From an uncultured Gemmatimonadaceae bacterium (GTDB lineage: Bacteria > Gemmatimonadota > Gemmatimonadetes > Gemmatimonadales > Gemmatimonadaceae): 64,000 nucleotides of DNA. Shown here piece by piece: positions 46,741 through 51,226 of the stretch. The notes below the pieces were generated by a model. It saw only the letters and a program-made list of their open reading frames with translations, was not told the DNA's origin and did no database searches. Made by a program: the position numbers and the translations under genes. The stretch covers positions 1,248,001 to 1,312,000 of the forward strand of contig CAVXGK010000002.1 in the NCBI GenBank assembly GCA_963761305.1. Direction: 5' to 3'. Positions within the stretch are counted from its first letter, which is position 1. Every line of letters begins with the position of its first letter.

Positions 46741-47520
46741 CTACGCTAGCAGCAGGAACGCGTCGTAGAGCGCGTGCGTCCACGCGGTAATGCCGAACCC
46801 GCGCAGCAGATAGAGGCCGCTGAAGGCGAGGCCGCTCAACGCGCGGAACACGAACGACTGCAGCTCGAGCTTGTCGCCGTACGGGCCGATGTAGTGGAAC
46901 GCCGAGAAGATCAGCGCGCCCGAGACGGCCGCGATGACGCCCGACGCACGCGCGCCGAGGCCGAGGAGAATGCGCGCGCCGGCGGCGATGCCGGTCACGA
47001 GCAGCACACGGAAGAAGAGCTCCTCGTAGAGACCCGCGCCGAGCGAGAGCATCAGGCGCGTCGGCCAGGTCGTTTGATCGATCGGGCCGAGGCTGAGCGC
47101 GTGGAGCGAACCAAGCAGCTTCGCCGTGGTGACGCCGACGACAATGCCGAACACGCTGGCGAGGAGGATCGATTCGCCGAGCATGCCGGCGAACACGCTC
47201 GGCCGGAGCGGGTCGCGATTGCGTCGCATGTCGCGCAGCACGAGGGCGATGCCGATCAGGACGATCACGGCGATGAACACCAGCGACCCGCGGCGTCCGG
47301 CGATGGCGGTGAACGCCGCGCGCAATAGCGCGTCAGCCCCGTTGCGCAGCTCGGGCTTGCCCGGCCGCGACAGGGCGGCGGCGAGCACCTCGTACCCGAG
47401 GAGCAGCGGGAGCGCGAAGAGGATGCTGTACCGATGCGCCCGGCTGACCTTGAAGTACGACCATCGGCGCGTGGAGGCGCGCCCGGCAGGCTTCGAGCGC
47501 GCGAGAGTCGCGGTGTTCAT
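46741..47520 (-). CDS. CPBP (CAAX protease/Abi) family intramembrane glutamic endopeptidase
   Basis: EELFFR, FSAFH, HALYD motifs; multiple TM helices. Confidence 0.9.
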   Translation of the reverse strand: MNTATLARSKPAGRASTRRWSYFKVSRAHRYSILFALPLLLGYEVLAAALSRPGKPELRNGADALLRAAFTAIAGRRGSLVFIAVIVLIGIALVLRDMRRNRDPLRPSVFAGMLGESILLASVFGIVVGVTTAKLLGSLHALSLGPIDQTTWPTRLMLSLGAGLYEELFFRVLLVTGIAAGARILLGLGARASGVIAAVSGALIFSAFHYIGPYGDKLELQSFVFRALSGLAFSGLYLLRGFGITAWTHALYDAFLLLA

Positions 47521-47552
47521 GCGGTCATTCTACGCGCGAAGGGGTGGCGAAG

Positions 47553-47581
47553 TTGCGGAACGGCGATCCATTCACTAGGGT
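47553..47581 (+). promoter_or_regulatory. Candidate sigma70 promoter of a stand-alone small transcript
   Basis: TTGCGG-N17-TAGGGT. Confidence 0.5.
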
Positions 47582-47587
47582 ACGATA

Positions 47588-47785
47588 ATCGTCGCGCTTC
47601 GGCGACGCACGCGACACGTTCACCCGAAATCCGAGGAGGTGATCCATTGTCTAGCGGAACTCGTAACGGCAGGATCGCCGGAAATCGCTGAGCGATTGAG
47701 TCAGCTCGGCCGCCGGAAGCCTGCTAGTTCCGGTGAATTGAGAAATAGCGGGGCCACCGTGGAGACACGGTGGCCCTTGCTTTTC
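47588..47785 (+). ncRNA. Candidate structured small RNA, possibly encoding a 14-aa peptide (47647-47691)
   Basis: Own promoter and terminator, no long ORF, several nested stems, AGGAGGTGATCCA at 47634-47646. Confidence 0.5.
47751..47785 (+). terminator. Intrinsic terminator
   Basis: GGGCCACCGTG-GAGA-CACGGTGGCCC followed by TTGCTTTTC. Confidence 0.85.
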
Positions 47786-48058
47786 TGGTGACGCGACAAG
47801 TGGGTTGGCCGGCCACTCCGGGTTCGATGTCGCGAGCCACGTACGGCCCGCGCTCGACGACGGTGGCTGCCATCCGACGCCAGACGTCAGACCTGGCATT
47901 TTCGCGGCGAGGACCTGTCTTGGCGTGGTGAATCACACCGCGTCACGCCGAAACGGATGTCTGAGGTCAGCTGTCGGCTCCCGATTTCGAGCACGCAGCC
48001 GTACCACGCCCGCCAAGACAGACCTCAGAGTGGCCGCGATCCAAACGCCGTCAGCTGT

Positions 48059-48568
48059 TCAAGCGCCCGTACTTCCAAATCCTCCGACGCGATCGGTCGT
48101 CACGCTCACGCTCCCGGCTTCGATTGCCAGCACCTCGAACCTCGCCAGCACCATCTGTGCAATCCGCTCTCCGTGATCGATCCGAACCGGCGCCGTCGTC
48201 GGATTCTTCACCAGCACCATCCACTCGTCGGGGAAATCGGAGTCGATCGTGCCCGGCGCATTGGGAATCGCCAGCCCTTTCTTGAACGTCGTCCCGCTGC
48301 GCGGGCGGATCTGCGCCTCGACACCCATCGGCAGGCGCGCCTTGAAGCCGAGTGGCACGAGCGCGGTCACACCGGGGGCAAGCGTGAACGATTCGACGGC
48401 GTGCACCGCGTCTTCCGTCCACGTGCGCTGCCCGTCGGAGCACTTGATCGACCGTGTGCGCACGTAGGCGCAGAGGTCGTAGCCGGCGGAGCCCTCCGTC
48501 GCGCGGCGCGGCGCGCGGGCGTCGTCGTGCAACAGTTCGACGGTGAGCGATTCCACGATGATCGTCAT
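48059..48568 (-). CDS. dut: dUTP diphosphatase
   Basis: SAGYDL, QIRPRSG, PGTIDSDF, ERIAQ, DRVGGFGSTG; start at ATG 48568. Confidence 0.94.
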   Translation of the reverse strand: MTIIVESLTVELLHDDARAPRRATEGSAGYDLCAYVRTRSIKCSDGQRTWTEDAVHAVESFTLAPGVTALVPLGFKARLPMGVEAQIRPRSGTTFKKGLAIPNAPGTIDSDFPDEWMVLVKNPTTAPVRIDHGERIAQMVLARFEVLAIEAGSVSVTTDRVGGFGSTGA

Positions 48569-48628
48569 GCGCGGAATGTAGCTCGCGCGCCCTTGCCGCG
48601 CGGCTGTCTGTCGCGATAGCGTCCCCGC

Positions 48629-51226
48629 ATGCCGACACGCCGACATCTGTACGCCGCGGCGCTCGCGGGCCTCGCCGCCGCGGCGCTCGACCGGGCGAAC
48701 CCGCCCGACTCTCTCATGGGCCCCGGCGTGTCGCGCGAGCTGGCGACCGAGCGCGCGGCGAATCTCGGCGGCGTGCGATATCACATGGAGCTTTCGCTCC
48801 TCTCGCGCGACACGGCGCACGGCTCGATCGCGATCGCGTTCACCGCCAAGCGCGCGAGCGACGTGATCGTCGACTTTCGAGGACCGCGGCTCGCGGGCGT
48901 GCGCGTCAACGGCGGCGCGGCGCAGACGACGTTCAACGGCGCGCATCTTCGGATTCCCGCACGCGCGATTCACGCGGGCCACAACGAAATCACGGCGTCG
49001 TTCGCGGCGCTCATCGCACCCGCCGGGGCCAGCATCATTCGCTTCCACGACGATCGCGCCGACGCCGACTACCTCTACACGTTGTTCGTGCCGTCGGATG
49101 CCAACGCGCTCTTCCCGTGCTTTGATCAGCCTGATCTCAAGGCGAGACTCTCGCTCTCGCTGACCGTGCCGGCCGGTTGGAACGCGTTGGCCAACGGCAT
49201 CACGGAGCACGTGGACTCGACCGGTGGATCGCGGACGTACCGTTTCCGCGAGACCGATCCCCTGCCGACGTACCTGTTCGCCTTCGCGGCCGGGCCCTGG
49301 CACGAGTTCACGGGCGGCCCGCACGACACGCATCTCTGGGTCCGCGCGTCGCGCGCCAAAGAAGTCGAAGTCGACTCGCTTCAGGCGCAGGTCGCGTCCG
49401 CGATCACGTCGCTGCAGACGTATTTCGGCGTGCCGTATCCGTTCCAGCAGTTCCAGTACATGCTCTCACCCGCGTTTCCGTTCGGCGGCATGGAGCACCC
49501 CGGCGTCACGATGTTCAACGAGGAGTCGTTCATCTACCGCGAGCCGCCGACGCTCAACCAGCGCCTCGGCCGCCGCGCGACGATCTACCACGAGGTGGCG
49601 CACCATTGGTTCGGCGACGACGTCACGATGCGCTGGTTCGACGACCTGTGGCTCAAGGAAGGCTTCGCGACGTACATGGCGGCCAAGATGCAGGACATCG
49701 AAGGGCTGCCCAATCCGTGGATGTCGTTCTACCTGCGCAACAAGCCGGCGGCGTACGACGTCGACCAGACGAGCGGCACCACACCGGTGTGGCAGCAACT
49801 CGCCAACCTCGACCAGGCCAAGAGCAACTACGGCGCGATCGTCTACAACAAGGCGCCGGGAATCCTCAAGCAGCTCAACTACCTCGTCGGCGACTCGGCG
49901 TTTCGGATCGGCCTTCACGCTTTTCTCATCACGCACGCGTACGGCAACGCGACGTGGCAGGATCTGCTGGCGTCGATCGGCAAAGCGGCCCACCGGCCAC
50001 TTACGGAGTGGGGACGCCAGTACATCCTCCGCCCGGGGATGCCGGTCACCGAACAAGTGCTCGACACGGAGAATGGAACGATCAAGCGTCTCGCGCTGGT
50101 TCAGCACGCGGCGCAGTCGCTGTCGGGACGCGGCGTGTGGCCCATGCGCACTGAAGTCGTGCTCTGGTCGGCCGGCGCCGAGCCGACGTCGATCCCTGTC
50201 GAGGTCACGGCCGAGACGACCGTCGTCGCGGCGGCGAAGGGCAAGCGCGCTGATTTCGTCTTCGCGAACGCGAACGACCAGGCCTACGGGCTGGTGATGC
50301 TCGACGCGCACAGCTCGCGGTGGCTCCTCGGCCACCTGGGCGAGGTGCGCGATCCGTTTCTGCGCGCGATGCTCTGGGGCGCGCTGTGGGACCTCGTGCG
50401 CGACGCCCGCATCGCGCCGGCGGAGTTCGTCGCGTCGGCGACGCGCGAGCTGCCGAACGAATCCGATGAACAGATCGCCGCCGGCGTGCTCGGACGGCTG
50501 AGCCGCGCGACGTCGGCGTACCTGTCGGACGCGCAAGGCGCATCGAGCACGGCGGCCGTCGAGACCATGCTGCTCGGCGTGGCGTCCGATGGGAAGCGCA
50601 GCTACGGCATCCGCAAGAGTTTCCTCGACACGTACATCTCGGTGGCGACGTCCGCGCCGGCGCTCGCGCGACTGCGCGCGTGGCTCGACAGCGCGTCGAT
50701 CGCCGGCACACCGCTCCGCCAGCCGACGCGCTGGTCGATCGTCACTCATCTCGTCGAGCGTGGAGCATCCGACGGCGACGCGTTGATCAGCGCGGAATCA
50801 CACCGCGACACGACGGTGAACGGCCGCCGCAGCGCGTTCGTCGCCGGCGCCGCGCGACCTAGTGCTGCGATAAAGGCCGACTACTTCCGCCGGTTCTTCC
50901 ACGACTCGACGCTCAACGAGGACTGGGTGACGGCAAGCCTGCGCGCGTTCAACGCGCCCGACCAGGCAGCGAAGACCCTTCCCTACCTCGTGCCCGCGCT
51001 CGACTCGCTCGCCTGGATCCAGAAGAACCGGCGCATCTTTTTCCTCGGCTCGTGGCTCGGCGGCTTCATCGGCGGCCAGCAGTCACCCGAGGCGCTGCAC
51101 AACATCGACGACTTCCTGGCCGGGCACCCGGCGCTGCCCGCAGATCTGCGCCAGAAAATCCTCCAGACGCGCGACGACCTCGAGAGGACCGTGAGGATCC
51201 GAGGGCGGTTCGCCGGTGTGGTGTGA
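48629..51226 (+). CDS. pepN: M1-family aminopeptidase with ERAP1-like C-terminal domain
   Basis: FPCFDQPDLKA, GGMEH, HEVAHHWFG...WLKEGFA, IVYNKA; export-like N-terminus. Confidence 0.92.
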   Translation: MPTRRHLYAAALAGLAAAALDRANPPDSLMGPGVSRELATERAANLGGVRYHMELSLLSRDTAHGSIAIAFTAKRASDVIVDFRGPRLAGVRVNGGAAQTTFNGAHLRIPARAIHAGHNEITASFAALIAPAGASIIRFHDDRADADYLYTLFVPSDANALFPCFDQPDLKARLSLSLTVPAGWNALANGITEHVDSTGGSRTYRFRETDPLPTYLFAFAAGPWHEFTGGPHDTHLWVRASRAKEVEVDSLQAQVASAITSLQTYFGVPYPFQQFQYMLSPAFPFGGMEHPGVTMFNEESFIYREPPTLNQRLGRRATIYHEVAHHWFGDDVTMRWFDDLWLKEGFATYMAAKMQDIEGLPNPWMSFYLRNKPAAYDVDQTSGTTPVWQQLANLDQAKSNYGAIVYNKAPGILKQLNYLVGDSAFRIGLHAFLITHAYGNATWQDLLASIGKAAHRPLTEWGRQYILRPGMPVTEQVLDTENGTIKRLALVQHAAQSLSGRGVWPMRTEVVLWSAGAEPTSIPVEVTAETTVVAAAKGKRADFVFANANDQAYGLVMLDAHSSRWLLGHLGEVRDPFLRAMLWGALWDLVRDARIAPAEFVASATRELPNESDEQIAAGVLGRLSRATSAYLSDAQGASSTAAVETMLLGVASDGKRSYGIRKSFLDTYISVATSAPALARLRAWLDSASIAGTPLRQPTRWSIVTHLVERGASDGDALISAESHRDTTVNGRRSAFVAGAARPSAAIKADYFRRFFHDSTLNEDWVTASLRAFNAPDQAAKTLPYLVPALDSLAWIQKNRRIFFLGSWLGGFIGGQQSPEALHNIDDFLAGHPALPADLRQKILQTRDDLERTVRIRGRFAGVV

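What the first reader, a model, noticed from the sequence alone, without database searches (positions are those of the whole stretch)
47553..47785. Stand-alone ~200-nt transcript with a 13-nt perfect complement to the 16S rRNA 3' end
Seen: promoter TTGCGG-N17-TAGGGT; 5' hairpin CGTCGC/GCGACG (47590-47607); AGGAGGTGATCCA (47634-47646) directly followed by TTG and a 14-codon ORF MSSGTRNGRIAGNR; nested stems CGGAACT/AGTTCCG, GCAGG/CCTGC and AATCGC/GCGATT; TCACC (47620-47624) can pair with either the SD or GGTGA at 47732; strong terminator. Known: the conserved 16S tail is UGGAUCACCUCCU, and ordinary SDs pair with far fewer bases. Inference: ribosome-binding or sequestering sRNA, or a switchable micropeptide mRNA.
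Basis: partly seen in the sequence, partly recalled or inferred. Interest (0 to 1): 0.7.

Follow-up and report, generated by a model that had tools for sequence, protein, structure and literature searches.

The report
Ribosome-docking mini-mRNA in Gemmatimonadota
A conserved, single-copy ~200-base unit in a Gemmatimonadota genome carries a 13-base perfect match to the tail of the ribosome's 16S RNA followed by a 14-codon reading frame; it resembles, in a new phylum, the little-understood 'rre' small mRNAs of Alphaproteobacteria and likely works by docking on ribosomes rather than through its peptide.

Summary
The 13-nt complement pairs with this genome's own 16S tail, and it is the only non-rRNA site of that length in the 5.2-Mb genome.

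The unit is not an orphan.
- It is single-copy here and present in 24/24 sampled genomes of the genus.
- The motif GGAGGTGATCCANTGTCT occurs exactly once in 84/401 sampled genomes of the phylum, against 0/401 for the reversed pattern.
- The motif is also widespread in Alphaproteobacteria.

The closest described things are the rreB/rreR small mRNAs (Hahn et al., PMC5711450) and Rfam CC2171. The window scores 30.5 bits against CC2171, below its cut-off of 75.

New findings here:
- The kind extends to Gemmatimonadota.
- A bistable fold is predicted. An ORF-internal mimic of the 16S tail (GGAUCGCC) masks the 3' half of the SD and the start codon.
- That same mimic can instead join long-range stems, which are supported by compensatory changes.
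- The peptide is not conserved between classes, but the frame always encloses the mimic.

Expression and ribosome binding are not shown for this lineage, and the physiological role is unknown. An earlier report of this scan noted a similar unit in Latescibacterota, and another filed an alphaproteobacterial unit under rre/CC2171. Verdict: a new variant of a known kind, of moderate interest.

The parts
47552..47581 (+). Promoter-like block: GTTGCGGAAC (contains the -35-like TTGCGG 47553-58), then the -10-like TAGGGT 47576-81. The predicted transcription start is near 47588.
   Evidence: Read. The block is conserved in 25/25 copies of the genus. The strict consensus scan did not call it. The start site is inferred, not mapped.
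47590..47607 (+). 5'-terminal hairpin, CGTCGC with GCGACG.
   Evidence: In alignment A3 all 6 pairs show changes on both sides (helix 1).
47620..47624 (+). Leader TCACC, able to pair with GGTGA of the SD or with GGTGA at 47732-36.
   Evidence: The MFE fold pairs it with 47638-42. It is present in 7 of the 22 class-A copies. A CACC leader motif is in 49/87 unique Gemmatimonadota copies.
47634..47646 (+). Extended Shine-Dalgarno AGGAGGTGATCCA: 13 nt complementary to the genome's own 16S 3' tail, plus a possible G47633:U wobble.
   Evidence: It is the only non-rRNA site with 13 nt or more of complementarity in the genome. All 13 bases are the same in 20/22 class-A copies; two have T for the last A, and GAGGAGGTGATCC is invariant in 22/22.
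47647..47691 (+). TTG-initiated 14-codon sORF (MSSGTRNGRIAGNR) with its TGA stop.
   Evidence: The frame is 14 codons in all 25 copies of the genus, and in all 14 other-genus copies of the RIAG-type class seen (7, 7). The peptide differs between classes.
47638..47679 (+). Conformation A, the SD/start-masking hairpin: GGUGAUCC 47638-45 pairs with GGAUCGCC 47672-79 (a 16S-tail mimic with one G:U), and UGUC 47648-51 pairs with GGCA 47668-71.
   Evidence: This is the RNAalifold consensus; all 12 pairs are invariant in 22/22 copies. The duplex energy is -18.2 against about -11.7 kcal/mol for shuffles, z about -3.
47655..47732 (+). Conformation B, nested long-range stems: CGGAAC 47655-60 with GUUCCG 47727-32; GCAGG 47669-73 with CCUGC 47720-24; CCGG 47678-81 with CCGG 47713-16. 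The stems enclose apical hairpins at 47683-47709, and the stop codon sits in the first loop.
   Evidence: Part of the MFE fold. Compensatory changes across genera support these stems together with the 5' and apical hairpins: 18 of 27 model pairs changed on both sides, 9 of them among the 15 pairs of the three stems, and 0/500 shuffles reach this (the alignment was fitted to the model).
47750..47785 (+). Intrinsic terminator: a 12-bp G+C-rich stem, a 4-nt loop and a T-rich tail.
   Evidence: Terminator-like sites follow 150 of 172 unique motif-bearing units by a crude script rule.
46741..47520 (-). Divergent neighbour: an Rce1-like/CPBP membrane protease gene. It may be leaderless (TAGAAT lies 6 nt before the ATG on the minus strand).
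   Evidence: Pfam PF02517, E 2.8e-09. It is adjacent in 22/24 loci of the genus. The leaderless reading is my own and is untested.

Best explanation
This is a single-copy small gene, conserved throughout the genus, whose predicted ~200-nt transcript (about 47588-47785) likely docks on the 30S subunit through a 13-bp helix with the 16S 3' tail; that docking has been shown experimentally only for rreB, the closest described small mRNA.

Shown by the sequence and comparisons:
- The extended SD is followed directly by TTG-TCT and a 14-codon frame.
- A 5' hairpin and a terminator bracket the unit.
- An ORF-internal segment, GGAUCGCC, mimics the 16S tail.
- That segment can pair in two mutually exclusive ways: with the 3' half of the SD and the start codon (conformation A, which masks them), or with a 3' segment in nested long-range stems (conformation B).

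Inferred mechanism:
- In the free RNA the SD 3' half and the start codon are mostly masked, and the few bases 5' of and at the start of the SD are exposed as a seed.
- The 16S tail would invade from that seed and displace the mimic.
- The mimic would then re-pair into the long-range stems, which begin 8 nt after the start codon and would impede accommodation and elongation.
- The result would be strong docking with weak translation.

The peptide itself is probably not the conserved product. What is conserved is the engagement of a ribosome with a short frame that runs through the mimic. The physiological role is unknown, as it is for rre. My best guess is a ribosome-coupled control of the RNA's own fate, or a readout of free 30S subunits.
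For: - **Complementarity:** it is to this genome's own 16S tail and is unique at this length.
- **Conservation:** 24/24 genomes of the genus. One copy in each of 84/401 genomes of the phylum, reversed-pattern control 0/401. Single copy in this genome.
- **Core invariance:** the core is invariant, including third codon positions, while the flanks vary; mean column identity is 77%.
- **Conformation A:** chosen by RNAalifold, 12 invariant pairs.
- **Energetics:** A lies within 0-5.5 kcal/mol of the MFE in 25/25 copies of the genus and is the MFE in 8. Keeping the SD fully open costs 1.4-10.5 kcal/mol more than A in 24/25.
- **Conformation B:** 18 of 27 model pairs (5' and apical hairpins included) have changes on both sides, 9 of them among the 15 pairs of the three long-range stems. 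Covariation score is 0.343 against 0.05-0.07 for slid controls, and 0/500 shuffles reach it.
- **Masking partner:** it recurs in every Gemmatimonadota ORF class, in rreB and in many CC2171-type units, at different positions. It lies inside the ORF in 107 of 108 strong cases.
- **Reading frame of the mimic:** G(A)UCGCC falls in two different frames in different classes (my reading of the sequences). Its conservation is therefore at the RNA level.
- **Accessibility:** the 6 leader nt before GGAGG are 0.41-0.75 unpaired, and the SD 3' half is 0.1-0.3 unpaired.
Against: - No RNA ends, ribosome binding or translation are shown for any Gemmatimonadota copy.
- Contigs from four metatranscriptome runs hold relatives' copies, but some contigs bridge the promoter. 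DNA carry-over therefore cannot be excluded.
- Complementarity is 13 nt, against 16-17 nt in rre. The 5' extension that Hahn et al. found crucial for ribosome localisation is missing in this order.
- Conformation A has no covariation, because all its pairs are invariant. Its support is invariance, energy and recurrence only.
- The window's own MFE uses the leader TCACC rather than the internal mimic to mask the SD.
- Some signals fit peptide selection: codons 4-6 vary only at the third position within the genus, and the frame stays at 14 codons.
- Alignment A3 was fitted to the model's structure, which favours that structure.
Confidence: 0.62

Rival explanations
1. It is a true micropeptide gene. 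The 14-residue peptide MSSGTRNGRIAGNR is the functional product, and the unusual SD only sets its expression level.
For: - The frame is 14 codons in all 25 copies of the genus and in all 14 other-genus RIAG-type copies seen.
- Within the genus, codons 4-6 change only at third positions: GGA/GGG, ACT/ACA/ACG, CGT/CGC.
- 'RIAG' is kept across genera through synonymous changes: CGG/AGG, ATC/ATT, GCC/GCT, GGA/GGG/GGT.
- Hahn et al. regard RreB and RreR as conserved small proteins.
Against: - Peptides are unrelated between classes that share the same SD-NTG-TCT head, even within one genus: MSSGTRNGRIAGNR against MSADQTAGEGRRSF.
- The conserved residues coincide with the RNA masking segment, which sits in two different frames in different classes.
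- The 'synonymous' C/U changes also preserve G:U pairing.
- Codons 3 and 5-7, outside the pairings, change non-synonymously between genera.
- Third positions elsewhere in the frame are invariant, which peptide selection alone does not explain.
- Synthetic RreB and RreR were unstructured.
Confidence: 0.17
2. It is a non-coding, trans-acting base-pairing sRNA, or a ribosome sponge. The SD-like stretch or the invariant 3' arm (47713-47736) would act on other RNAs or titrate 30S subunits, and the ORF would be incidental.
For: - It is a stand-alone unit with a 5' hairpin and a terminator.
- It has long invariant stretches.
- Rfam files the related CC2171 as an sRNA.
Against: - SD, correct spacing, start codon, TCT second codon and a closed short frame are co-conserved in 167 of 172 unique units. 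An incidental ORF would not show this.
- The gene is single-copy, and rreB overproduction had no growth effect, which argues against bulk titration.
- I looked for no target systematically.
Confidence: 0.12
3. It is a cis-acting leader or attenuator for the neighbouring Rce1-like/CPBP protease gene.
For: - The CPBP gene is adjacent in 22 of 24 loci of the genus.
- It is adjacent in 20 of 30 distinct places in the sister family, mostly from one genus (g6). In 19 of those it lies downstream on the same strand.
- In the four 11-codon loci I read, its putative ATG lies 5-28 nt after the unit's T-run (5 nt in three of them).
Against: - In the window and throughout its genus the CPBP gene is divergent, so the unit cannot be its leader.
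- No co-directional gene follows the terminator. ORF 47805-48176 is conserved only where it overlaps the antisense dUTPase-like gene.
- The linkage is missing in 18-19 of 20 further loci from other genera and families.
- Context is also not conserved among Alphaproteobacteria.
Confidence: 0.06
4. It is a chance SD-like string in an intergenic spacer, and not a real feature.
For: One other 12-nt complement (GGAGGTGATCCA) lies inside coding-looking sequence elsewhere in the genome, apparently by chance.
Against: - Conservation across 24/24 genomes of the genus and 84/401 of the phylum, with 0/401 for the control pattern.
- Compensatory changes.
- Fold z-score of -4.35.
Confidence: 0.01

Closest known systems
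rreB, small mRNA of Bradyrhizobiaceae (Hahn et al., RNA Biol 2017, PMC5711450; abstract and sections 13, 18, 19 read)
   Same: - Stand-alone small transcript (165 nt there, about 200 nt predicted here) with its own promoter and terminator.
- Extended SD complementary to the 16S 3' tail, followed at once by a non-AUG start.
- TCT as second codon and a 14-codon sORF.
- The 3' part of the complementary region is folded into a hairpin, with only a short 5' seed exposed (their Fig. 2D text; my).
   Different: - 17 nt of complementarity including the G of GTG there; 13 nt (plus one G:U) and a TTG start here.
- Different phylum.
- The sORF peptides are not alignable, and my covariance model of the Gemmatimonadota unit scores rreB loci at only 11-21 bits.
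- 30S binding, weak translation and start-codon-dependent stability were shown for rreB and are untested here.
rreR (Rhodobacterales, 18 codons) and other 'rre' analogues in Caulobacterales, Rhizobiales and Rhodospirillales (same paper)
   Same: The same SD-NTG-TCT head with a lineage-specific short frame. I recovered these classes with the motif scan.
   Different: They were reported only in Alphaproteobacteria. Predicted SD masking by a downstream partner is weak in rreR (z about 0 to -2) but strong here.
Rfam RF01867, CC2171 sRNA (Caulobacter; Northern-confirmed in Methylorubrum extorquens, bioRxiv 10.1101/2022.01.24.477521, passages read)
   Same: The window aligns end to end with the model (47625-47777). 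It shares AGGAGGUGAUCCA-UGUCU, an internal hairpin and the terminator.
   Different: - The score is 30.5 bits against a gathering cut-off of 75.
- Of 20 test loci, 12 matched the model below E = 0.01. Only the three tested MSHC-type alphaproteobacterial loci pass the cut-off; rreB (about 42), rreR (37-43) and Gemmatimonadota (30-36 bits) do not.
- Rfam treats it as a non-coding sRNA.
Super-Shine-Dalgarno mini-ORF small RNA family of Latescibacterota
   Same: As summarised there: a stand-alone structured RNA with a long 16S complement and a tiny frame that stays open while its peptide is not conserved.
   Different: It comes from another phylum and I did not examine its sequences. It is an unchecked AI note, used only as a lead.

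Membership tests
Rfam RF01867 (CC2171) | Covariance-model score at or above the curated gathering score (75 bits). | tested here: not met
   30.5 bits, E 8.7e-05, at window 47625-47777. There is no gathering-level hit anywhere in the window.
rre small mRNAs (Hahn et al. 2017) | [quoted passage not shown] | tested here: not met
   13 Watson-Crick pairs, plus one possible G:U, with the genome's own 16S tail CTGGATCACCTCCTTAACGG. Another family of the same class (f6) does have 17 nt.
rre small mRNAs (Hahn et al. 2017) | The last complementary base is the first base of a GTG start codon. | tested here: not met
   The start is TTG, and T47647 faces a C of the 16S tail. GTG occurs in family f6 and in some genomes of family f2.
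rre small mRNAs (Hahn et al. 2017) | A short sORF directly behind the extended SD, conserved within a lineage. | tested here: met
   14 codons in 25/25 copies of the genus. 167 of 172 unique motif-bearing units have frames of 10-27 codons.
rre small mRNAs (Hahn et al. 2017) | Stand-alone small transcript with its own promoter and terminator. | tested here: inconclusive
   There is a conserved promoter-like block and a terminator, and no co-directional gene downstream. No transcript ends are mapped, and the metatranscriptome contigs are ambiguous.
rre small mRNAs (Hahn et al. 2017) | The 3' part of the complementary region is in a hairpin, with a short single-stranded 5' seed. | tested here: met
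   By prediction only.
rre small mRNAs (Hahn et al. 2017) | Association with 30S or ribosome fractions, weak translation, and start-codon-dependent RNA stability. | not testable with these tools
   These need fractionation, toeprinting, reporter fusions and half-life measurements.
Leader-peptide transcription attenuator | A regulated gene downstream on the same strand, and a terminator/antiterminator alternative coupled to leader translation. | tested here: not met
   The next real genes on both sides are on the opposite strand. I saw no alternative pairing that involves the terminator arm (reading).

The most novel reading that the evidence does not exclude
The unit is one branch of an ancient, multi-phylum class of ribosome-actuated RNA switches, seen in Alphaproteobacteria and Gemmatimonadota, with a few hits in Gammaproteobacteria and Planctomycetes and a Latescibacterota family noted in an earlier report. 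An exposed seed lets the 16S tail strip an internal 16S-tail mimic off the SD and start codon. The freed mimic then snaps into a long-range clamp. The RNA would thereby report the availability of free 30S subunits and set its own fate or that of a partner. The tiny frame would exist only to bring a ribosome through the mimic.
Probability: 0.3. Interest if true: 0.75.

Novelty: new variant of a known kind. Interest (0 to 1): 0.5.

Why it matters
The rre/CC2171 small mRNAs carry the longest natural Shine-Dalgarno complementarity described. They bind 30S subunits yet are barely translated, and their function is still unknown.

Finding the same head (extended SD, non-AUG start, TCT codon, short frame) as a single-copy gene in about a fifth of sampled Gemmatimonadota genomes shows the design is not an alphaproteobacterial peculiarity. 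The body of the RNA is different but has the same masking logic.

The many independent classes also give comparative leverage. What is conserved is ribosome engagement and an RNA switch around a 16S-tail mimic, not a peptide. This yields direct, cheap experiments on a ribosome-RNA interaction of unknown purpose.

Tried and rejected
- **Rfam, whole window at gathering level:** nothing found.
- **Strict sigma-70 scan:** no promoter called.
- **Literature search with the motif letters:** swamped by 16S PCR primers.
- **Literature search for rreB/rreR:** swamped by the human gene RREB1. Requiring 'rreB' together with 'Shine-Dalgarno' returned only Hahn et al.. I therefore found no paper in the held library that extends rre beyond Alphaproteobacteria. 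Subscription papers are not covered.
- **Sequence look-up in this scan's earlier findings:** nothing.
- **Within-genus covariation:** uninformative because the core stems are invariant, and my hand-drawn apical helix was out of register.
- **Homology to rreB beyond the SD head:** not supported, with rreB loci scoring 11-21 bits under model R1. The shared 14-codon length and the GGATCGCC segment may be convergent.
- **Co-variation of the SD's 5' extension with lineage-specific 16S tails:** not seen. Genus g1 (tail ...CCTTAAC) and family f2 (tail ...CCTTTCT) both have 13-14 nt; only f6 has 17 nt. Two of the ten pattern hits I fetched (G117, G339) were not 16S ends.
- **Metatranscriptomes:** four RNA runs from four studies hold contigs of 90-850 nt that are 85-97% like 47491-47741. 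They are contigs, two bridge the untranscribed promoter gap or run into the flanks, and no ends or strand can be read. This is no proof of transcription.
- **CPBP-gene linkage as a general rule:** rejected.
- **Terminator/antiterminator alternative in the 11-codon class:** the candidate pairing does not overlap the terminator arm (my reading).
- **ORFs on the minus strand across the unit (47651-47899, 47525-47647) and ORF 47805-48176:** no Pfam match for the two I scanned (47525-47647 was not scanned), and conservation only where they overlap other features.
Full report
**1. Observation**

- A promoter-like pair: TTGCGG (47553-58), a 17-nt spacer, TAGGGT (47576-81).
- A 5' hairpin: CGTCGC (47590-95) with GCGACG (47602-07).
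- AGGAGGTGATCCA (47634-46), directly followed by TTG (47647-49) and the frame MSSGTRNGRIAGNR, with TGA at 47689-91.
- The nested stems, and a strong terminator (12-bp stem at 47750-77 plus a T-rich tail).

The genome's single assembled 16S gene ends ...CTGGATCACCTCCTTAACGG. The complement is therefore 13 Watson-Crick pairs with this organism's own rRNA, plus a possible G47633:U.

GGAGGTGATCC occurs three times in the 5.2-Mb genome: in the 16S gene, once inside coding-looking sequence, and here. A complement of 13 nt or more occurs only in the 16S gene and here. The 203-nt stretch folds with z = -4.35.

The flanking genes are an Rce1-like/CPBP protease (46741-47520, minus strand, divergent) and a dUTPase/DCD-like protein (48059-49333, minus strand). 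The unit therefore stands alone on its strand.

**2. Conservation**

A DNA search found the unit in 24 of 24 other genomes of the genus. In 3 of 8 genomes of a sister family only the SD-start head matched, and in a third family 0 of 8 matched. It is single-copy in the window's genome under a covariance model built here (162 bits).

The 18-nt head GGAGGTGATCCANTGTCT occurs exactly once in 84 of 401 genomes sampled across the phylum, while the reversed control pattern occurs in 0 of 401.
- By family: f1 13/93, f2 62/166, f6 7/30, f4 1/7, f7 0/70, f3 0/5, and the remaining families (f5, f8-f12) 0/29.
- One of the 84 (G089) is an unpublished genome. Without it the count is 83/400.
- These are lower bounds, because copies with a changed letter are missed. 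Two copies in the genus read CCT for CCA.

A scan of the species-level genome collection returned 120 stretches, and the tool estimated about 4000 in all.
- Of the 80 listed titles, most are Alphaproteobacteria.
- 11 are Gemmatimonadota, 2 are Gammaproteobacteria and 1 is Planctomycetaceae.
- The record titles place the window's lineage in Gemmatimonadota. I did not name the organism further.

**3. What is known**

At E-value level, Rfam aligns the window end to end with RF01867 (CC2171, a Caulobacter sRNA). The score is 30.5 bits against a cut-off of 75.

An earlier report of this scan (e1-6860521) pointed me to Hahn et al. (PMC5711450). I read its abstract and sections 13, 18 and 19.
- They describe rreB, a 165-nt small mRNA of Bradyrhizobiaceae.
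- It has a 17-nt complement to the 16S tail that includes the G of a GTG start, and a 14-codon sORF.
- It localises to the ribosome fraction and co-sediments with 30S.
- It is stabilised when the start codon is replaced by a stop.
- Its physiological function is unknown, and overproduction did not affect growth.
- They found analogues (rreR and others) only in four alphaproteobacterial orders.

My motif scan recovers the published rreB and rreR classes and further ones by their frames.
- Alphaproteobacteria: MSxxKRCHLAGIAR (14 codons), MSRVILERGVGT... (18 codons), MSHCLSPRS...-type (21-26 codons).
- Gemmatimonadota: the window's MS[SN]GTRNGRIAG[SN][RH], MSTDPxTARIAGSR-like (14 codons), MSADQTAGEGRRSF (14 codons, 3 genomes of the same genus), MSTESRVACGx (11 codons) and MS...[RW]ASDR... 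(about 20 codons).

Of 20 representative loci, only the three tested alphaproteobacterial loci with MSHC-type frames pass the Rfam cut-off. rreB, rreR and Gemmatimonadota loci score 30-43 bits.

A search of the held library for 'rreB' together with 'Shine-Dalgarno' returns only Hahn et al.. I therefore found no published extension to other phyla. Subscription journals are not covered.

**4. Anatomy and structure**

In the alignment of 22 class-A copies, two blocks are invariant: GAGGAGGTGATCC, then TTGTCTA-CGG-AC-CG-AACGGCAGGATCGCCGGAA, and later CCGGAAGCCTG..GTTCCGG. This includes nearly all third codon positions, while the 5' hairpin, the apical hairpin and the terminator vary.

It chooses a hairpin in which GGUGAUCC (47638-45) pairs with GGAUCGCC (47672-79), and UGUC (47648-51) pairs with GGCA (47668-71). 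These are 12 pairs, invariant in 22/22 copies.
- GGAUCGCC differs from the 16S tail segment GGAUCACC by one transition that keeps a G:U pair. It is an internal mimic of the 16S tail lying in codons 9-11.
- I call this conformation A.

- CGGAAC with GUUCCG, GCAGG with CCUGC, and CCGG with CCGG.
- B uses the same GGCAGGAUCGCCGG segment as A, so the two conformations exclude each other.

Constrained folding of all 25 copies of the genus gives the following.
- A lies within 0-5.5 kcal/mol of the MFE in 25/25 copies and is the MFE in 8.
- A fully open SD with B costs 1.4-10.5 kcal/mol more than A in 24/25.
- For the window's RNA the values are MFE -92.9, A -88.9 and open SD -86.7 kcal/mol.
- The window's own MFE masks GGUGA with the leader TCACC instead, a feature of 7 of the 22 class-A copies.

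Conformation B is supported by evolution.
- The test used a model-fitted alignment of 21 copies: 11 from class A, 3 from class B and 7 from other genera.
- 18 of 27 pairs show changes on both sides (63 cells), and 0 of 500 shuffles reach this.
- Slid controls give 6-12 pairs, and the covariation score is 0.343 against 0.05-0.07.
- The caveat is that the alignment was fitted to that structure.

Conformation A cannot show covariation, because the SD side is fixed by the rRNA. Its support is of three kinds.
- A downstream partner for GGUGAUCCANUGUCU recurs in every Gemmatimonadota class, in rreB and in many CC2171-type units. It sits at class-specific positions, with a median z of -2.2 over 172 unique units and z of -2 to -4 in most Gemmatimonadota units (down to about -1.8) (mononucleotide shuffles).
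- The partner lies inside the frame in 107 of 108 strong cases and ends 0-24 nt before the stop in 104.
- In the 11-codon class and in class B, the partner also has an alternative 3' complement (my reading).

Mean unpaired probabilities for the window's class are 0.41-0.75 for the six leader bases before GGAGG, and 0.1-0.3 for the 3' half of the SD. This is the same picture Hahn et al. describe for rreB.

**5. Peptide or RNA?**

For the peptide:
- The frame is 14 codons in all 25 copies of the genus and in the 14 other-genus RIAG-type copies seen.
- Within the genus, the variable sites in codons 4-6 are third positions.
- 'RIAG' persists through synonymous changes.

Against the peptide:
- Peptides of different classes are unrelated, even within one genus.
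- The conserved residues are the translation of the masking segment G(A)UCGCC. That segment lies in one frame in the RIAG, rreB and 11-codon classes and in another frame in class B and the ~20-codon class (my reading).
- The C/U 'synonymous' changes also preserve G:U pairs.
- Codons 3 and 5-7 change non-synonymously between genera.
- Invariant third positions elsewhere need an RNA-level constraint.

I conclude that a short frame running through the mimic is selected, and that the peptide sequence largely is not. I cannot explain why the second codon is TCT in all 28 matches found without requiring it (27 other genomes plus the window's own copy), as well as in CC2171 and rreB/rreR.

**6. Mechanism**

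Shown by the sequence: the complementarity, the frame, the two exclusive pairings and the terminator.

Inferred from rreB experiments and from folding:
- The free RNA keeps its SD 3' half and start codon masked.
- The 16S tail invades from the exposed 5' seed.
- The released mimic joins the long-range stems, which begin 8 nt after the start codon and would hinder accommodation and elongation.
- The outcome is strong docking with little translation, and ribosome-dependent turnover.

The physiological role is unknown. Bulk ribosome titration is unlikely, because the gene is single-copy and rreB overproduction had no growth effect.

**7. Differences from rre**

In the window's order the complement is 13-14 nt with a TTG start. 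A more distant family of the same class (f6) has the full 17 nt and GTG, as in Alphaproteobacteria. The 16S tails are ...CCTTTCT in f2 and f6 and ...CCTTAAC in the window's genus.

The 5' extension that Hahn et al. found crucial is therefore absent here. It also does not track the lineage's 16S tail.

My model of the Gemmatimonadota unit scores rreB loci at only 11-21 bits. Common descent of the RNA bodies is therefore not shown. The shared head could be inherited, transferred or convergent.

**8. Expression**

Four metatranscriptome runs from four studies contain contigs 85-97% like 47491-47741. Examples are a 152-nt contig that is almost entirely the unit, and contigs of 227 and 255 nt.

Others (311 and 850 nt) run across the promoter gap into the flanks. 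Contigs give no ends or strand, and DNA carry-over cannot be excluded. Transcription is therefore not shown for this lineage. It has been shown by Northern blot for rreB and for CC2171 in M. extorquens (passages only).

**9. Context**

The CPBP gene is adjacent and divergent in 22 of 24 loci of the genus. It is adjacent in 20 of 30 distinct places in the sister family, 19 of them downstream on the same strand. In the four 11-codon loci I read, its putative ATG lies 5-28 nt after the T-run (5 nt in three of them). These sister-family places are mostly one genus.

It is adjacent in only 1 (plus one marginal case) of 20 further loci from other genera and families. I treat this as lineage-limited synteny and not as a defining link.

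**10. Verdict**

It is a Gemmatimonadota variant of a described but functionally unexplained kind (rre small mRNAs / CC2171). It fails the formal Rfam cut-off and the 16-nt criterion but shares the architecture.

The extension to a new phylum, the bistable mimic model and the evidence that the peptide is not the conserved entity are the new points. Interest is moderate.

Noticed in passing
window 46741-47545 (minus strand): The Rce1-like/CPBP gene may be leaderless. On the minus strand a TAGAAT lies 6 nt before its ATG (47520), back to back with the small unit's promoter. In the 11-codon loci I read in the sister family, the same gene sits downstream on the unit's strand, with its putative ATG 5-28 nt after the unit's terminator T-run and no visible SD.
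   Followed up: partly
window 47805-48176 (+): This 123-codon ORF has no Pfam match. Its only conserved part (about residues 84-123) is where it overlaps, antisense, the 3' end of the dUTPase-like gene. It is probably not a gene.
   Followed up: partly
window 48059-49333 (-): The dUTPase/dCTP-deaminase-like domain occupies only residues ~300-423. The ~300-residue N-terminal part has no Pfam match and is much less conserved among genomes of the genus.
   Followed up: no
L002 1440-1560 (own 16S 3' end); L203-L212: The window's genus has a 16S gene ending ...CCTCCTTAACGG, whereas three genera of sister family f2 and three genera of family f6 in the same class have ...CCTCCTTTCT.
   Followed up: partly
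loci L012-L020, L023-L025, L028, about 30-45 nt upstream of the -35-like block: A GAAGTTCT motif recurs between the small unit's promoter and the divergent CPBP gene in many copies of the genus. It may be the CPBP gene's -10 region (TAGAAC on the other strand) or a regulator site.
   Followed up: no
L067, L086, L150 (Azospirillum), L047, L073: Five of 172 units with the same SD-NTG-TCT head have long frames (59-71 codons). The three Azospirillum frames have a hydrophobic N-terminal stretch that looks like a signal peptide. These may be ordinary small proteins using the extended SD.
   Followed up: no
L001 about 1501-1512 (own genome, contig 2, about 562.7 kb): A 12-nt complement to the 16S tail (GGAGGTGATCCA) lies inside what reads as a long coding region, apparently by chance.
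   Followed up: partly
all motif-bearing loci (window 47650-47652): The second codon is TCT in all 28 matches found without requiring it (27 other genomes plus the window's own copy), and in the Rfam CC2171 consensus. RreB and RreR also start Met-Ser. Pairing explains it in some classes only, so the reason is unexplained.
   Followed up: partly
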